Positions 4,677 through 30,509 of a DNA stretch of 31,707 nucleotides are shown one piece after another. This stretch comes from a virus. Every line of letters starts with the position of its first letter. Positions within the stretch are counted from its first letter, which is position 1. The notes beneath the pieces are model-generated. The model was given only the letters and a program-made list of their open reading frames with translations. It did not search any database and had not been told where the DNA came from. The stretch spans positions 1 through 31,707 of IMG/VR virus record IMGVR_UViG_3300033232_000021. One strand, written 5' to 3'. The position numbers were made by a program, and so were the translations under genes.

Positions 4677-5235
4677 TAAGCACCTCTGATAAAAACATAA
4701 ACTCTGTATCTGGGGACAGTTTTAATATCCTGTGCATTGTTTCCTCAAGCCCATTATCACATACATCTTGAATGTGTCCGTGAGCTATTATAGGTTCTTT
4801 AGCATCTGCGTTAGGTTCATCGTTAGATAAGTTCCAATTATAATAACCATCCTCTACTACCTTAAATCCTGCGTCTAATGCTGCTTGTTTTGCTTCCTTT
4901 GATAACTCCCACTGCGGTGCTTTGAATATTTTAGTAAAGTTTTTAATCCCAGCGTTTTGGAACATCTTTTGTCCTACTGTTAGTCTTTTTAAAGCACCCT
5001 CATAAGAAAGTTCTGCAAACTCTGATGGTGCGTGTGTTAGTCCATGCAGTGCAACCTCTATCCAATCGGCTTTGTTTACAGCCTCAACGAATGGTTTAAA
5101 TTTATCAAGTGTTATAGGTGCGGAGTCTTGAATGTTCTTGCAATACCTAACCTCCCAAGGAACAGTGAATAAAGTCACCTTAAAGTTAGGGAAGTGGTCT
5201 GCCATTTCCTCTAAATACACAAGACCGTGGTTCAC
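4633..5235 (-). CDS. Polysaccharide-deacetylase-like (DUF2334/NodB-like) protein. It may be N-terminally truncated.
   Basis: Contains KVTLFTVP...ALHGLTH...FKAPQWE motifs. The only start in the track is GTG at 5235, and no SD is visible. The in-frame peptide PDDFSA lies just upstream, behind a TGA. Confidence 0.45.
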   Translation of the reverse strand: MNHGLVYLEEMADHFPNFKVTLFTVPWEVRYCKNIQDSAPITLDKFKPFVEAVNKADWIEVALHGLTHAPSEFAELSYEGALKRLTVGQKMFQNAGIKNFTKIFKAPQWELSKEAKQAALDAGFKVVEDGYYNWNLSNDEPNADAKEPIIAHGHIQDVCDNGLEETMHRILKLSPDTEFMFLSEVLNAQKGLYEYYGKKD

Positions 5236-14645: not shown

Positions 14646-15031
14646 TCAGCTTTATCTTCTCCAAGTATGGGAACGATGTTTATCTGCATGGCGTGTGTTG
14701 GTCCTTCTTGTGGATAATCACCAACCTTTTTAGTCATTAGTTCTAAATGGTTGTAGTTACCCTTCTCAGCATATTTCAAAGTTATCTGGTCAAGTTTCGG
14801 GATTATTCTTCTACGTTTCTTTGTATATTGCTCATAAAACCAATCCTCAAACCCCTCTACCTTTAACCACTTATACCAATTAGTTCTGTCGAGTCCACAC
14901 TCTGCTGAAACTTTGGCGGGGGAATCTGTTAAAAGCCTTACCGCAGCGTCAAGATATTCAATCATTCCTGCAGTAGGCTTAAAAATAACGACTTCTGTAG
15001 AATTTTGACGATTATCAATCTCCTTAGTCAT
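14642..15031 (-). CDS. Putative terminase small subunit (129 aa).
   Basis: Immediately upstream of terL and coupled to it by an ATGA overlap. HTH-like segment AKVSAECGLDRTNWYKWLK. Confidence 0.5.
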   Translation of the reverse strand: MTKEIDNRQNSTEVVIFKPTAGMIEYLDAAVRLLTDSPAKVSAECGLDRTNWYKWLKVEGFEDWFYEQYTKKRRRIIPKLDQITLKYAEKGNYNHLELMTKKVGDYPQEGPTHAMQINIVPILGEDKAE

Positions 15032-20487: not shown

Positions 20488-20703
20488 CTACTTTACAGGA
20501 AATGTCAATGGTACAGAACCATCAAAGATACCACCGGGATTATCCAAATCATACACCGCCAATTTTTTTACAACGGTTTCAGATCCTTCATCCCTTAAAG
20601 CAAGATGGTCTTTGTAGTAATTCCTAAACATCTTACCTAATTCCGTAGGTGGTACTTTACCTAAGTTTCTTTTAATTTCTTTTAAGTGTTCTTGAGCAGT
20701 CAT
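20488..20703 (-). CDS. Hypothetical first early protein (71 aa from ATG 20703).
   Basis: The ATG at 20703 gives MTAQEHLKEIK... The track start at 20715 is a TTG lying inside a DnaA box. Confidence 0.5.
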   Translation of the reverse strand: MTAQEHLKEIKRNLGKVPPTELGKMFRNYYKDHLALRDEGSETVVKKLAVYDLDNPGGIFDGSVPLTFPVK

Positions 20704-20705
20704 AC

Positions 20706-20782
20706 TTATCCACAAAAGTTATCCACAATTTCGGGGCGGTCTATTTACTTTAAATACAATATCCCTATAAAAGTTATCCACA
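20706..20782 (+). promoter_or_regulatory. Cluster of three perfect DnaA boxes (TTATCCACA), all in the same orientation.
   Basis: Exact 9-mers at 20706-20714, 20719-20727 and 20774-20782. A 7/9 match (TTATAAACA) is at 20801-20809. Confidence 0.7.
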
Positions 20783-20814
20783 ATGATATTGATCCCCTAC
20801 TTATAAACACCCCT

Positions 20815-20890
20815 ATTAAAACCTACTAATATATAAATATATCTTTATATAATAGATACATTTAAAAATGTAAATTTTAATAAACATTTA
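20815..20890. other. Very AT-rich tract. Candidate DNA-unwinding element.
   Basis: Sequence is ttaaaacctactaatatataaatatatctttatataatagatacatttaaaaatgtaaattttaataaacattta. It lies about 30 bp from the DnaA boxes. Confidence 0.4.
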
Positions 20891-21001
20891 CGGTTGTGTG
20901 TTTACTCTCACGCCGTAAACTCGGAACAAGCACTTAACCTGTCTGCTTGTAGGAAGCTTTACTTACTTTTCAAGCTATACGCCTCACAGGTGTACCTCCG
21001 A

Positions 21002-21181
21002 TCATCTAATAAAGATGTCTTGCTTGTAATACTTACGTGCTTTCTTTATTAGACTTCTTTGTTCGTCACTTAGAATATATTTTCGGCGTTTTCGTTTACT
21101 AAACCTTTTTCTTTCCAGCCTTGCCTGTCATTTTAGTTCTTTTCTTTTTTCTTCTGATTCTTTTAAATACTCTTCGTTCAT
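21002..21181 (-). other. 59-sense-codon Lys/Arg-rich ORF interrupted by one in-frame UGA. May be noncoding.
   Basis: Reads MNEEYLKESEEKRKELK-TGA-QARLERKRFSKRKRRKYILSDEQRSLIKKARKYYKQDIFIR. The internal TGA is at 21128-21130 and is followed by C. Confidence 0.2.
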
Positions 21182-21221
21182 AACAAAAAGGACTCCTCGA
21201 GCCGAAGCTCAAAGAGTCCTT
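21181..21221 (-). terminator. Strong intrinsic terminator (T3) with a UUCG tetraloop.
   Basis: Minus strand reads AAGGACUC-UUU-GAGC-UUCG-GCUC-GAG-GAGUCCUU followed by UUUUGUU. Confidence 0.75.
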
Positions 21222-21226
21222 ATTGC

Positions 21227-21254
21227 TTATCACTCGTGTTGACATGTGTGATAA
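21227..21254. promoter_or_regulatory. Inverted repeat TTATCAC-N14-GTGATAA centred on the -35 box of P(+). Candidate operator.
   Basis: ttatcac at 21227-21233 and gtgataa at 21248-21254. Confidence 0.35.
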
Positions 21255-21268
21255 ACCTGTTGTATAAT
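21239..21268 (+). promoter_or_regulatory. Consensus sigma70-type promoter P(+), the only convincing plus-strand signal in the genome.
   Basis: TTGACA (21239-44), 18-nt spacer, TATAAT (21263-68). Confidence 0.6.
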
Positions 21269-21274
21269 TTGAAT

Positions 21275-21358
21275 AATTTATTCATAAGTAAATTAAATAA
21301 TATACCTCCTCGTGAGGTATGTCAAGAACCTCTCAATCAAATGAGGGGTTTTCTTGTT
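21275..21358 (+). ncRNA. Predicted small RNA of about 85 nt from P(+). It has an AU-rich 5' tail and two hairpins; the second is a terminator.
   Basis: Hairpin 1: atacctc/gaggtat (21302-21320) exposing CCUCCU. Hairpin 2: cctctca/tgagggg (21329-21348) followed by uuuucuuguu. No ORF with a usable RBS. Confidence 0.4.
21297..21325 (-). promoter_or_regulatory. Near-consensus promoter P(-), facing P(+).
   Basis: Minus strand reads TTGACA (21325-21320), 17-nt spacer, TATTAT (21302-21297). The spacer contains the 19-bp palindrome ATACCTC-ctcgt-GAGGTAT (21302-21320). Confidence 0.5.
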
Positions 21359-21363
21359 ATATG

Positions 21364-28491: not shown

Positions 28492-30509
28492 TAATAACCT
28501 CCTATTGATTTAAATAGATTCTCAAACAAATCTAACTTATAAGCTATTGTTTCATCAGTATCTGTTATCTTAGGTAACATCCCACTATATCTCTTCCACT
28601 CTGCGTTATTTATAGCAGCACCTGTTCTCATTCTCTGCAGGACATCTTGAATTTCATCTCCCGCTGTTTTTAACATCTGTGCCTTAGTGTTTAACCCTTG
28701 GAGTGGGAGAATCCTACTTGCCATAACTCCCCTATTTACCTCATCTCCTGAATAAAGTGCAGACTTTAACGAGTCTATTGCTCTTAGACCCGATTGTGCG
28801 TTAGCTTGTTCCTTTGATACCTCACCACTACCTCCAAATGACTTAGAATCATATTCTATAAAGCTCTGTGTCATTGGATTCCATATCGCCTTACCTGATG
28901 GGTGTATTATCCACAATTTTCTCATAACATCTTCACCGTATTGTTTCATAAGTTGTGGTGCCATTTGTGTTGCTTCAAAATAAGATATAGGACCTTGGGG
29001 TACTTGAGAACCTTGAACCATACCCCCTTGAGGAGCCCCCCCTATTGAACTGTCAAGTCTTTGCAACGGCGTACCTCTTTCTTTAGTTGCTAAACCACCT
29101 GCCTCTTGTGCCAATACATCTCTTAAAACATCTCGTGAACCTGCAGACCCCGCTACATTTAAAGCACCCTGTACAGGTTTCATAAGTGTGTCACCCAATC
29201 TTGAAAAACCAGCACCTGCTTGACCTTTTGTTATTGGTAAATTAAATCCAAGGTCATCTACTCCGGGGAAGTTTAATCTTGCTGGCACATCTCCCTGATA
29301 GTTTTTAACCAATTCTTCCGCTATATTAAACAATGCCCTTTCCTTATTGTTTATCACACCTATGTTGGGGTCTACATCTGCTAAAGCGTCTTGGAAAGAC
29401 CTAAACAGTGCCTTGTGAATCTGATTCTTTGCAGAACCCTTTACACCGTGTTTCAACATCTGAGATGCTTCCTGCTTCGCTGCATATAAACTATCAACAT
29501 CAGTTATAGAGTCTATTTTATCTAAAAGATTATCCATAAAAAACCTATTTCCTTTAACTGTATCATCAAACTCTACATACCTGTTCACACTCTCTACAAA
29601 ATTATTTAGTATTTTATCTTTGTCCACAGGTTTGCCAGTGTATTCTTTTAAGATATTCTTCAGCTCAGAATCATATCTATTAAACCCGGGTTCAAGCTGT
29701 TCTACTTGTTGAAAAGGTGTCATTTTCTTATTTAATCCGATATCTTTTACCACTGCGTCCAAATCCTTCTTCTTACTTGCAAAAAAGGGGTCATCTTTTT
29801 CCAATGCTGTGCCTTTTAAGTCAACACCCTTAGAAACCTTGTTTGCCTGTCTTTCCTTTAGTTTACCAAGCCAATCCCCCGCCTTGTAAAGTCCTGCACC
29901 TGTTAAATAACCAGCACCAGCACCAACACCTGTCTGTATAAGTGTCTTGCCTACATCTGCCTCACCTTCTCCAAAACCTCTTGCACCGCCATACACAGCA
30001 CCTCTTAAACCTGCCTGTGCTGCTGATGTTGCCTTACCACCTAACAAAGCACCTGCTGCCATCTTAGGTGCTGCAAACGGCGCAACTGTTGCCCACGTTC
30101 CCACACCTTTCTTAGCACCATAAAAACCACCTTTTAAGGGTTTACCGCTTATATCCGCCACCGCTTTAGCTTTCATGAATTTTGGTCTGTTTAACTCTTG
30201 GAATTTCTTTATTTCATCTTCACTAACCTTTCCTGAATCTAATCTTTTTGATATAGACCTGTATTCAGGATTGATTTGATTTAAACCCTGTCTTCCTGCC
30301 TCTAACACAAGCCCACCATATTCCATAGGAATTTTAGCTATTCCTTTACCTATGTTATATGTCAGATTAACTAAAGGTGCGTCGCTAAACTTAACAAGGT
30401 CTGCTTCTTTGTATTGTCTTCTTCTCTGTTCTACTTGTTCAGGTGTAGCACCCAATCGCTGAGCTAATTGGAGTTTTTCTTCTAACTCTTTTTTACTAAG
30501 TCTTGCCAT
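28491..30509 (-). CDS. Internal virion / DNA-ejection-like protein (672 aa) with a Gly/Ala-rich hydrophobic region.
   Basis: Contains GAKKGVGTWATVAPFAAPKMAAGALLGG...GVGAGAGYLTGAGLY. Large size. No tape-measure context, since no tube or sheath genes are present. Confidence 0.45.
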   Translation of the reverse strand: MARLSKKELEEKLQLAQRLGATPEQVEQRRRQYKEADLVKFSDAPLVNLTYNIGKGIAKIPMEYGGLVLEAGRQGLNQINPEYRSISKRLDSGKVSEDEIKKFQELNRPKFMKAKAVADISGKPLKGGFYGAKKGVGTWATVAPFAAPKMAAGALLGGKATSAAQAGLRGAVYGGARGFGEGEADVGKTLIQTGVGAGAGYLTGAGLYKAGDWLGKLKERQANKVSKGVDLKGTALEKDDPFFASKKKDLDAVVKDIGLNKKMTPFQQVEQLEPGFNRYDSELKNILKEYTGKPVDKDKILNNFVESVNRYVEFDDTVKGNRFFMDNLLDKIDSITDVDSLYAAKQEASQMLKHGVKGSAKNQIHKALFRSFQDALADVDPNIGVINNKERALFNIAEELVKNYQGDVPARLNFPGVDDLGFNLPITKGQAGAGFSRLGDTLMKPVQGALNVAGSAGSRDVLRDVLAQEAGGLATKERGTPLQRLDSSIGGAPQGGMVQGSQVPQGPISYFEATQMAPQLMKQYGEDVMRKLWIIHPSGKAIWNPMTQSFIEYDSKSFGGSGEVSKEQANAQSGLRAIDSLKSALYSGDEVNRGVMASRILPLQGLNTKAQMLKTAGDEIQDVLQRMRTGAAINNAEWKRYSGMLPKITDTDETIAYKLDLFENLFKSIGGY

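What the first reader, a model, noticed from the sequence alone, without database searches (positions are those of the whole stretch)
20704..20890. Three perfect DnaA boxes plus an AT-rich tract in a phage with no recognisable replication genes
TTATCCACA occurs three times in the same orientation within 77 bp (20706, 20719 and 20774). A 7/9 box is at 20801. Short CCCTA(T/C)T..AAA direct repeats lie nearby, followed by a tract of about 75 bp that is almost pure A/T.

I could not recognise a polymerase, primase, helicase or initiator anywhere in the 31.6 kb. A host-DnaA-dependent origin is a parsimonious explanation.

Two of the boxes sit 3-24 nt upstream of the ATG of the first early gene (20703). 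DnaA could therefore alternatively, or additionally, gate early gene expression and couple phage development to host replication status.
Basis: partly seen in the sequence, partly recalled or inferred. Interest (0 to 1): 0.62.

Follow-up and report, generated by a model that had tools for sequence, protein, structure and literature searches.

The report
Host-DnaA binding module in small phage
A small lytic phage with no replication genes carries, just upstream of its first early gene, three conserved consensus binding sites for the host replication initiator DnaA beside the most AT-rich stretch of its genome, laid out like a bacterial chromosome origin; this is most likely a borrowed-initiator origin, but it could instead be a DnaA-controlled gate on early genes.

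Summary
TTATCCACA occurs at 20706, 20719 and 20774 (+). The genome holds 5 copies against 0.43 expected. A 7/9 box lies at 20801. The tract 20816-20890 is the lowest-GC stretch of this complete 31.7-kb genome.

The boxes are under selection. A diverged relative (L282/L283) keeps all three perfectly, with identical 13- and 55-bp spacing, while neighbouring non-coding DNA is only about 48-62% identical.

The layout is: box pair, 46-bp gap, single box, CTACTA, AT tract, all co-oriented. This matches E. coli oriC (R1 to R5M, also 55 bp) and a Clostridia dnaA-dnaN origin. An unrelated 57-kb phage has the same layout.

HMM searches found no polymerase, primase, helicase, loader or initiator. A syntenic relative carries a replication-initiator gene in this slot.

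Against an essential origin:
- The module sits in a 473-bp hypervariable cassette.
- Four sister lineages with the same flanking genes lack the boxes.
- GC skew is uninformative.
- The trio-to-box spacing rule is only loosely met.

Verdict: a functional DnaA-binding element is about 85% likely. Initiator-less origin about 45%; early-gene gating about 25%; titration or anchoring about 15%. This is a new variant of a known kind.

The parts
20706..20714 (+). DnaA box 1 (TTATCCACA), 2 nt from the ATG of the first early gene
   Evidence: Conserved perfectly in L282/L283.
20719..20727 (+). DnaA box 2 (TTATCCACA), in tandem with box 1 (4-bp gap, 13 bp start to start)
   Evidence: The same 13-bp spacing occurs in L282. 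The exact 22-mer pair occurs in the genomes of more than 120 bacterial species.
20733..20739 (+). GC cluster GGGGCGG inside the 46-bp spacer between boxes 2 and 3
   Evidence: Partly conserved in L282 (GGCGTGG).
20774..20782 (+). DnaA box 3 (TTATCCACA), 55 bp start to start from box 2; the perfect box nearest the AT tract
   Evidence: The 55-bp spacing is identical in L282, in the unrelated phage G001/L098 and between R1 and R5M in E. coli oriC.
20801..20809 (+). Degenerate box TTATAAACA (7/9), flanked by CCCCTA motifs
   Evidence: Not conserved as a box in L282.
20823..20831 (+). CTA CTA ATA, which reads 3'-GAT GAT TAT-5' on the other strand (DnaA-trio-like). It lies 13 bp after the 7/9 box, at the edge of the AT tract.
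   Evidence: this is the only box+trio hit in the genome with at least 2 consensus trios (0.75 expected). CTACTACTT is conserved at the same edge in L282.
20816..20890 (.). AT-rich tract (10.7% GC) with internal inverted repeats; candidate unwinding element
   Evidence: lowest-GC 60-bp and 75-bp window of the genome. (inverted repeats I3 and I11). An AT-rich tract of about 19% GC sits at the same place in L282.
20709..21181 (-). Hypervariable cassette that carries all of the above. It lies between a conserved promoter/terminator block and the conserved first early gene.
   Evidence: homology breakpoints. Alternative cassettes in L154/L155/L161, L157 and L284.
21002..21181 (-). Small basic ORF of the cassette, interrupted by an in-frame TGA at 21130-21128. 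Intact 61- and 65-aa homologues exist in L282 and L284.
   Evidence: TGA is an ordinary stop in 12 other genes.
21188..21325 (-). Conserved upstream promoter (TTGACA-17-TATTAT, 21325->21297) and strong terminator (21221->21188). Transcripts from here run towards the AT tract and the boxes.
   Evidence: Conserved with relatives.
20488..20703 (-). First early gene (71 aa, three predicted helices, function unknown), conserved in lineages with and without the boxes

Best explanation
The segment 20706-20890 is a functional binding module for the host's DnaA protein, and it acts as an oriC-like origin that needs no phage initiator.

Proposed mechanism, all inferred:
1. Host ATP-DnaA occupies the tandem pair (boxes 1 and 2) and the single box 3.
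2. The 46-bp spacer allows bending, as the R1-to-R5M spacer does in E. coli oriC.
3. The DnaA oligomer engages the CTACTA-led AT-rich tract (20823-20890), opens it, and the host helicase is loaded there.
4. Transcription from the conserved upstream promoter (21297) passes through the tract and may help opening.
5. After initiation, the phage's own nucleases would take over recombination-dependent replication. These are a PD-(D/E)XK exonuclease, an Mre11-like phosphoesterase and a NinG/Rap-like nuclease.

Shown here: the boxes, their conservation, the geometry, the composition and the missing replication genes. Not shown: DnaA binding, unwinding and helicase loading.
For: 1. **Statistics.** Three perfect co-oriented boxes lie within 77 bp, with 5 in the genome against 0.43 expected.
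2. **Selection.** L282/L283 share 76% identity in the adjacent protein. They keep all three boxes perfect at identical 13- and 55-bp spacing and add a fourth 8/9 box. The cassette's middle region is only 48% identical, and non-box positions near the boxes about 62% identical.
3. **Geometry.** The order is pair, 46-bp gap, box, AT tract, with the AT tract 3' of TTATCCACA. In E. coli oriC, R1 to R5M is also 55 bp start to start, in the same orientation, with the unwinding element on the R1 side. In a Clostridia dnaA-dnaN origin the order is a tandem array, a 45-nt gap, boxes, GCCC, CTACTACTA, then AT-rich DNA.
4. **Independent recurrence.** A complete, unrelated 57-kb phage (G001/L098) has a pair, a 46-nt gap, a box, a 14-nt GC-rich spacer and a pure AT tract of about 100 nt. 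It sits in the opposite orientation relative to the downstream gene, which argues for a self-contained DNA element rather than a promoter operator.
5. **Composition.** The AT tract is the least stable stretch of the whole genome by GC content.
6. **Trio-like motif.** The genome's only box-plus-trio hit with two consensus trios sits at the edge of the tract.
7. **Missing genes.** The complete genome has no polymerase, primase, helicase, loader or initiator. The 120-aa HTH protein has no structural match to initiators.
8. **Synteny.** In relative L125 (phosphoesterase 81% identical) the same slot holds a replication-initiation protein (phrog_19658, HTH_36) and no boxes.
Against: - Four sister lineages have the same flanking genes but no boxes in this slot: L154, L155/156 and L161, L157-160, and L284. 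The boxes are therefore not a fixed requirement of this phage group, unless each cassette is a different origin type.
- In three of those lineages the slot holds a structured element of about 230 nt with compensatory pairs, which looks more like an RNA leader.
- Box 3 is 40 bp from the trio-like motif, against about 13 bp in characterised origins. The bridging 7/9 box is not conserved in L282.
- The generic box+trio pattern is no more frequent than in shuffles: 50 hits against 47.
- Cumulative GC skew shows no extremum.
- Clusters of 3-5 boxes also mark non-origin DnaA sites in B. subtilis (PMC2533591).
- T5-like phages carry paired boxes away from their origins (bioRxiv 10.1101/866236).
- The host is unknown and no binding data exist.
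Confidence: 0.45

Rival explanations
1. The boxes are a DnaA-operated gate on early transcription. Early genes are transcribed from the conserved promoter at 21325->21297. DnaA bound to the three boxes in the transcribed leader, directly before the ATG, blocks or modulates elongating RNA polymerase. This would tie early gene expression to the host's DnaA-ATP level, and so to its replication and growth status.
For: - The boxes lie between the only strong same-strand promoter/terminator block and the start codon. Box 1 ends 2 nt from the ATG, and in L282 an extra box keeps that abutment.
- The slot is a variable leader. In relatives it holds a structured RNA-like element, which points to a regulatory position.
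- DnaA is an established transcription factor and elongation roadblock, and binds best to closely spaced box pairs (PMC11317965).
- B. subtilis regulatory sites have 4-5 boxes, of which 2-3 are perfect (PMC2533591).
Against: - The consensus scan finds no sigma-70-like promoter inside or next to the box cluster on the gene strand.
- This reading does not explain the conserved AT tract, the conserved CTACTA edge or the conserved 55-bp oriC-like spacing.
- The same module in phage G001 has the opposite orientation relative to its downstream gene.
Confidence: 0.25
2. The module is a DnaA sink or anchor. Many replicating phage copies, each with 3-5 high-affinity boxes, would titrate host DnaA and shut down host initiation, as datA does. 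Alternatively, the boxes tether the incoming or replicating genome to membrane-associated DnaA, as proposed for the injection-stop region of phage T5.
For:
- These arrays show no consistent AT-rich side: 60 upstream against 53 downstream.
- Several lie beside terminase/portal modules, including in G001.
- T5-like phages keep eight paired boxes in terminal non-coding DNA, away from the origin (bioRxiv 10.1101/866236).
- The phage has two further perfect boxes elsewhere in its genome.
Against: - Only three strong sites are present, fewer than in the large arrays seen elsewhere.
- A pure titration role does not need the conserved 55-bp spacing, fixed orientation or adjoining AT tract.
- The physical genome ends are unknown, so a T5-like terminal position cannot be claimed.
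Confidence: 0.15
3. The repeats are sites for another protein, whether phage-encoded or a different host factor, and match the DnaA consensus only by coincidence. Or they are a non-functional remnant.
For: - Boxes 2 and 3 lie within a longer exact 16-mer, and flanks such as AATTGTGGATAACT are also conserved in L282. A recognition sequence longer than 9 bp is therefore conceivable.
- The phage encodes small HTH proteins of unknown function.
Against: - The repeated core is exactly the 9-bp highest-affinity DnaA box, three times, and four times with one mismatch in L282.
- The identical tandem 22-mer is found in more than 120 bacterial species' genomes, and comparable tandem DnaA-box arrays lie in a confirmed dnaA-dnaN origin.
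- No cassette-specific protein co-varies with the boxes. The small basic ORF is broken in the window and occurs without boxes in L284.
- Perfect conservation argues against a remnant.
Confidence: 0.1

Closest known systems
E. coli oriC left half (DUE, R1, IHF-site spacer, R5M, tau2)
   Same: - High-affinity box next to the unwinding element.
- A second box exactly 55 bp away start to start (46-bp gap), followed closely by another box.
- All boxes co-oriented, with the AT-rich element 3' of TTATCCACA.
- CTA-type triplets at the edge of the unwinding element.

All verified on sequence.
   Different: - The window has 40 bp, not 13 bp, between the proximal perfect box and the trio-like motif.
- It has no 13-mer repeats, only one GATC, no right half (R2-R4), and no neighbouring dnaA, gidA or mioC.
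- The pair gap is 4 bp rather than 2 bp.
- It resides in a phage whose host is unknown.
Basal unwinding system of Firmicute origins (B. subtilis incC; Clostridia dnaA-dnaN origin seen in L278)
   Same: - A distal tandem box array.
- A gap of about 45 nt.
- Box(es) proximal to a GC cluster.
- CTA CTA ... (3'-GAT-5' DnaA-trios), then an AT-rich region, all in one orientation (PMC8287927, PMC6669920).
   Different: - In real origins the trios start within 16 bp or less of a good box, and there are at least 3-5 of them.
- Here only CTA CTA ATA follows a 7/9 box. In relative L282 no box with 2 or fewer mismatches lies within 16 bp of the trios.
Plasmid and phage origins that combine DnaA boxes with their own initiator or primer RNA (P1 oriR, pSC101, F, RK2; the pBR322 DnaA box near its R-loop origin). 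Named from my own knowledge, not tested here.
   Same: - An extrachromosomal replicon recruits host DnaA through consensus boxes next to an AT-rich region.
- An upstream promoter directs transcription towards the origin, as in ColE1-type replicons.
   Different: - No element-encoded Rep protein and no clear iterons were found.
- Primer-RNA function of the upstream transcript is untested. That region does not fold better than shuffles.
Paired DnaA boxes in the injection-stop (iss) region of T5-like phages (bioRxiv 10.1101/866236)
   Same: - Conserved pairs of consensus DnaA boxes in a large non-coding region of a lytic phage.
- The function has not been shown experimentally.
   Different: - T5 has eight boxes, in pairs 3 bp apart, tied to inverted repeats in the terminal repeat, and it has its own replication genes and a mapped origin elsewhere.
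- Here there are three boxes in an oriC-like order beside an AT tract, in a phage without replication genes.
Non-origin DnaA-box clusters that regulate transcription (B. subtilis sda, ywlC, yydA; E. coli dnaA, nrdAB, mioC; PMC2533591, PMC11317965)
   Same: - Similar box number and density.
- Closely spaced co-oriented pairs.
- Location upstream of a gene.
   Different: - Those clusters overlap or flank a promoter. Here no promoter-like site lies within the cluster.
- Here the cluster is coupled to a conserved AT tract.

Membership tests
oriC-type DnaA-dependent origin (DnaA-box cluster plus unwinding element) | Cluster of several consensus DnaA boxes, more than chance gives | tested here: met
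   Three perfect boxes and one 7/9 box lie within 104 bp. The genome has 5 against 0.43 expected, and 0 of 100 shuffles reach 5.
oriC-type DnaA-dependent origin (DnaA-box cluster plus unwinding element) | Boxes oriented so that the AT-rich unwinding element lies 3' of 5'-TTATCCACA-3' | tested here: met
   Window. The same polarity was verified in E. coli oriC and in a Clostridia dnaA-dnaN origin. It is kept in L282 and G001.
oriC-type DnaA-dependent origin (DnaA-box cluster plus unwinding element) | Adjacent AT-rich duplex-unwinding element | tested here: met
   20816-20890 is the lowest-GC 60-bp and 75-bp window of the genome. This is composition only; actual unwinding was not testable.
oriC-type DnaA-dependent origin (DnaA-box cluster plus unwinding element) | DnaA-trios: at least 3 NAN repeats (3'-GAT-5') within 0-16 bp of a box with 2 or fewer mismatches (rule of PMC8287927) | tested here: inconclusive
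   The rule is met in the window only through the 7/9 box (13-bp spacer, CTA CTA ATA). It is not met in L282. The generic pattern is as common in shuffles: 50 against 47.
oriC-type DnaA-dependent origin (DnaA-box cluster plus unwinding element) | Distal box or boxes about five helical turns from the proximal box (E. coli R1-R5M; B. subtilis distal box) | tested here: met
   55 bp start to start in the window, L282, G001 and E. coli; 54 bp in Clostridia origins.
oriC-type DnaA-dependent origin (DnaA-box cluster plus unwinding element) | Strand-composition (GC-skew) switch at the origin | tested here: not met
   Cumulative skew is monotonic over the whole genome. The test is uninformative because all genes are on one strand.
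oriC-type DnaA-dependent origin (DnaA-box cluster plus unwinding element) | DnaA binding, ATP-DnaA-dependent opening, and autonomous dnaA-dependent replication | not testable with these tools
   This needs EMSA or footprinting, a P1-nuclease or KMnO4 assay, and a plasmid replication test.
Iteron/Rep-type plasmid or phage origin with auxiliary DnaA boxes (P1 oriR, pSC101, F) | Element-encoded initiator protein | tested here: not met
   There is no initiator family hit in any ORF or in six-frame searches. The only hit is a 12-bit sub-threshold HTH_36 match in a 120-aa HTH protein, which has no structural match to initiators.
Iteron/Rep-type plasmid or phage origin with auxiliary DnaA boxes (P1 oriR, pSC101, F) | Array of iterons (about 17-22-bp direct repeats) | tested here: inconclusive
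   Only short CCCTA-type repeats and the 16-mer around boxes 2 and 3 are present.
DnaA-regulated promoter | Boxes overlap or directly flank a promoter of the regulated gene | tested here: not met
   No sigma-70-like site lies on the minus strand within 20704-20900. The nearest is at 21325->21297, with a terminator in between. The consensus scan is crude, and other promoter types are not covered.
DnaA-regulated promoter | Boxes within the transcribed region upstream of the gene (roadblock type) | tested here: inconclusive
   The position fits. No transcript data are available.
T5-type iss DnaA-box pairs | Pairs of boxes 3 bp apart, tied to inverted repeats inside the terminal repeat that enters the cell first | tested here: inconclusive
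   There is one pair, with a 4-bp gap. Inverted repeats occur only in the AT tract. The physical genome ends are unknown, and the 127-bp terminal repeat looks like an assembly overlap.

The most novel reading that the evidence does not exclude
This lytic phage replicates from a true miniature oriC. It encodes no initiator, helicase, primase or polymerase, and starts replication by assembling the host's own DnaA on a left-half-oriC mimic (pair, 46 bp, box, trios, AT tract). The module would be one of several interchangeable origin cassettes at the same genomic slot in this phage group; the others would be a phage initiator gene and a structured transcript. The same module recurs in unrelated phages, which would make initiator-less 'oriC mimicry' a general phage strategy.
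Probability: 0.3. Interest if true: 0.72.

Novelty: new variant of a known kind. Interest (0 to 1): 0.55.

Why it matters
DnaA boxes are known as helpers in plasmid and phage origins that also have their own initiator, and as unexplained features of T5. To my knowledge, a phage origin that relies on host DnaA alone has not been demonstrated. I did not find one in the literature searches.

If the origin reading holds, three things follow:
- It would show how a 31-kb lytic phage with no replication genes starts its DNA synthesis.
- It would couple phage replication directly to the host's initiation potential.
- It would supply a compact, natural, minimal DnaA-dependent origin for mechanistic work.

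If the gating reading holds instead, it would be a case of a phage reading the host cell-cycle regulator to time its early genes.

Either way, the data point to a wider and little-studied phenomenon: consensus DnaA-box arrays are common in uncultured phage genomes.

Tried and rejected
- **GC skew.** Cumulative skew shows no extremum and is uninformative here.
- **RNA genes.** Rfam and tRNA scans of the window and of relatives found nothing relevant.
- **Close relatives via the exonuclease.** None found.
- **Relatives via large terminase (about 65% identity) and phosphoesterase (50-81% identity).** None has a box cluster in the syntenic region.
- **Capture of a host origin fragment.** The cassette shares nothing beyond the boxes with 120 bacterial loci carrying the same 22-mer, or with 119 viral loci.
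- **More copies of the cassette.** Pattern scans of JGI metagenome contigs and IMG/VR returned 0 hits.
- **Reading the in-frame TGA of the small ORF as a sense codon (code 4 or 25).** Rejected, because 12 other genes end in TGA.
- **Leaderless or box-embedded promoter for the 71-aa gene.** No acceptable -10/-35 was found, by eye or by the scan.
- **Homology of the 71-aa protein to the L125 initiator.** None.
- **Structure of the 71-aa protein.** Low confidence (pLDDT 63), so it was not searched further.
- **Structure of the 120-aa HTH protein.** Good model (pLDDT 82), but no significant PDB match. The weak hits are HTH transcription factors, not initiators.
- **Folding of the cassette's middle region.** Not better than shuffles, z = -0.9.
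Full report
**What the window is.** The window is a complete viral record with direct terminal repeats and a CheckV completeness of 100%. It is 31.7 kb long with 38% GC, and every gene lies on the minus strand. A gene runs across the linearisation point, so the map is circular. Reading in the direction of transcription, the order is as follows:
- tail and lysis genes;
- a metallophosphoesterase (22398->21541);
- the largest non-coding region of the genome (21540->20704);
- about twenty small early genes;
- the terminase, portal, capsid and glycosylation genes.

Shine-Dalgarno sequences are common, perfect TTGACA/TATAAT promoters occur, and TGA is a normal stop codon. The host therefore uses standard bacterial signals, but it remains unidentified.

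**The observation.**
- TTATCCACA occurs at 20706, 20719 and 20774 on the + strand. The genome holds five copies against 0.43 expected, and none of 100 shuffles reached five.
- A 7/9 box, TTATAAACA, lies at 20801.
- The tract 20816-20890 has 10.7% GC and is the lowest-GC 60-bp and 75-bp window in the genome.
- Boxes 1 and 2 lie 3-24 nt upstream of the ATG (20703) of a 71-aa gene.

The suggested GC-skew check is uninformative: the cumulative curve falls monotonically because all genes share one strand.

**Missing replication genes.** PHROG and Pfam scans covered the early proteins and all large ORFs. They found only a PD-(D/E)XK exonuclease, a NinG/Rap-like HNH nuclease, an Mre11-like phosphoesterase, an SLT transglycosylase and structural or packaging proteins. 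Six-frame HMM searches of the whole record found no DnaB-type helicase, family-A polymerase, Prim-Pol, Toprim primase, DnaC/IstB loader or DnaA DNA-binding domain. The only hit was a sub-threshold HTH_36 match (12 bits) in a 120-aa HTH and zinc-ribbon protein. Its confident model (pLDDT 82) has no significant PDB match, and its weak resemblances are to HTH transcription factors.

**Comparative anatomy of the slot.** Homologues of the 71-aa protein (74-86% identical) gave short contigs from sister lineages. DNA similarity to the window covers three blocks:
- the phosphoesterase gene;
- the block 21527-21182, which holds terminators and a face-to-face promoter pair;
- everything from 20708 onward.

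The 473 bp between these blocks (20709-21181) has no counterpart in most relatives, so it is a replaceable cassette. Five states of the slot were seen:
1. **Window and L282/L283.** A small basic ORF, a diverged middle, an AT tract and DnaA boxes.
2. **L154, L155/156 and L161.** An element of about 230 nt with nine compensatory base pairs, and no boxes.
3. **L157-160.** A different 67-aa ORF and leader, and no boxes.
4. **L284/285.** A homologue of the small basic ORF, but no boxes.
5. **L125.** This relative is syntenic over the lysis gene, the phosphoesterase (81% identical), the 120-aa HTH protein, a zinc-finger protein and the SLT transglycosylase. In the slot it carries a 220-aa replication-initiation protein (phrog_19658, E = 3e-26; HTH_36) and no boxes.

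**Selection on the boxes.** The L282/L283 lineage keeps the three boxes perfect, at the same 13- and 55-bp start-to-start distances. It adds an 8/9 box abutting the ATG. Across the same alignment the cassette's middle is 48% identical. The non-box positions around the boxes are about 62% identical: 39 of 63, derived. Perfect retention of 27 box positions by chance is therefore very unlikely. Also conserved are CTACTA at the box-proximal edge of the AT tract, and the distance from box 3 to that motif (40 nt against 38 nt). The small basic ORF is not tied to the boxes. It is broken by an in-frame TGA in the window, and it occurs without boxes in L284.

**Geometry compared with real origins.**
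- I checked the E. coli origin on sequence rather than from memory. The fetched locus lies between mnmG and mioC.
- On the strand where R1 reads TGTGGATAA, the 13-mer unwinding element lies 5' of R1. R5M (TGTGAATGA) starts exactly 55 bp after R1, a 46-bp gap, in the same orientation. Tau2 follows after 2 bp.
- On the window's minus strand the order is AT tract, TGTGGATAA, a 46-bp gap, TGTGGATAA, 4 bp, TGTGGATAA.
- A Clostridia dnaA-dnaN intergenic origin, with DnaA and DnaN confirmed by Pfam, shows the same logic: a tandem array, a 45-nt gap, two boxes, GCCC, CTACTACTA and AT-rich DNA.
- The exact pair TTATCCACAAAAGTTATCCACA occurs in more than 120 bacterial species, mostly Bacillaceae, Clostridia, Deinococcus and Actinobacteria.
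- The published rule for the basal unwinding system (PMC8287927) is a box with 2 or fewer mismatches, a spacer of 16 bp or less, and at least 3 NAN trios. The window meets it only through the 7/9 box (13-bp spacer, CTA CTA ATA). That hit is the only one in the genome with two consensus trios.
- The loose form of the rule is no more frequent than in shuffles, and it fails in L282.

**An independent example.** Their gaps are mostly 2-3 bp and G-rich, arrays reach seven boxes, and there is no consistent AT-rich side. Many lie 0.7-3 kb from a large-terminase gene. One of them, a complete 57-kb phage (G001/L098), has the window's layout: a pair, a 46-nt gap, a box, a 14-nt GC-rich spacer and a pure AT tract of about 100 nt. 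G001 has no dnaA gene and does have a DnaB-like helicase. Its module sits upstream of its terminase genes, in the opposite orientation relative to the downstream gene. The internal architecture is therefore conserved while its relation to transcription is not. That favours a self-contained DNA element over a promoter operator.

**Transcription context.** On the gene strand, the only strong promoter in the non-coding region is TTGACA-17-TATTAT at 21325->21297. A strong terminator follows at 21221->21188. A perfect opposing promoter lies on the + strand at 21239->21268. The consensus scan finds no promoter within 20704-20900 on the gene strand. If early genes are read from the upstream promoter, the AT tract and the boxes are transcribed. 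That is compatible with transcriptional activation of an origin. It is equally compatible with DnaA acting as a roadblock; both DnaA roles are reviewed in PMC11317965.

**Weighing.** I consider it very likely (about 85%) that these are functional DnaA sites.
- **For an origin:** the oriC-like order, spacing and polarity; the extreme AT tract; the independent recurrence in G001; the total lack of replication proteins; and the initiator gene occupying the same slot in L125.
- **Against an essential origin:** the cassette is absent from four sister lineages. In three of them the slot holds what looks like a structured RNA leader. The proximal box lies 40 bp from the trio-like motif. GC skew gives nothing. 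Non-origin DnaA clusters of similar size are well known (PMC2533591), and T5-like phages keep paired boxes away from their origin (bioRxiv 10.1101/866236).

I rate the readings as follows: initiator-less origin 0.45, early-gene gating 0.25, DnaA titration or anchoring 0.15, and another protein's site or a remnant 0.10.

**Limits.** There are no binding, transcript or replication data. The host is unknown. The relatives that carry the cassette are 1.2-kb contigs. Statements about P1, pSC101, pBR322 and DnaA roadblocks at asnC rest on my own knowledge, or on the cited reviews, and were not tested here.

Noticed in passing
window 21002-21181 (-): A small basic ORF directly after the terminator is interrupted by an in-frame TGA at 21130-21128. 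Relatives have intact 61-aa (L282) and 65-aa (L284) versions. Because TGA is a normal stop in this phage, the copy is either a pseudogene or needs readthrough.
   Followed up: partly
L154:1044-1314, L155:2626-2877, L161:31-265: In three sister lineages the slot that holds the DnaA cassette is occupied by a conserved element of about 230 nt. It has 51 predicted pairs, 9 of which show compensatory changes among only three sequences. There is no Rfam match. It may be an undescribed structured leader RNA, or a single-strand DNA signal, of the early operon.
   Followed up: partly
window 21188-21360: Two face-to-face near-consensus promoters (minus strand 21325->21297; plus strand 21239->21268) each run into their own terminator. 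The block is conserved at the DNA level with the relatives. An earlier finding of this scan covers the same feature.
   Followed up: partly
L030, L036, L104, L107, L120 (IMG/VR contigs): Arrays of 6-7 perfect, co-oriented DnaA boxes, mostly TTATCCACA-GG(T)-TTATCCACA, sit in the divergent intergenic region next to large-terminase and portal genes. Of 119 tandem-box loci, 25 held a detectable large-terminase gene, and in 22 of these the array lay within 3 kb of it. No function is known.
   Followed up: partly
L289 (G001:C1:7500-17500), boxes at 4873-4959: A complete 57-kb phage carries the same architecture as the window: a pair, a 46-nt gap, a box, a GC-rich spacer and a long pure-AT tract. The module lies just upstream of its small- and large-terminase genes. 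This phage encodes a DnaB-like helicase but no DnaA.
   Followed up: partly
L125:7192-7854: The closest full-length syntenic relative (a 30.3-kb contig) has an HTH_36 replication-initiation protein exactly where the window has the DnaA cassette plus the 71-aa gene. The replication-initiation determinant therefore appears to be exchangeable at this locus.
   Followed up: yes
window 14709-14717 (-) and 28907-28915 (+): Two further perfect DnaA boxes lie inside coding regions, in the small-terminase gene and in a 672-aa late protein gene. They may be chance occurrences or secondary DnaA sites.
   Followed up: no
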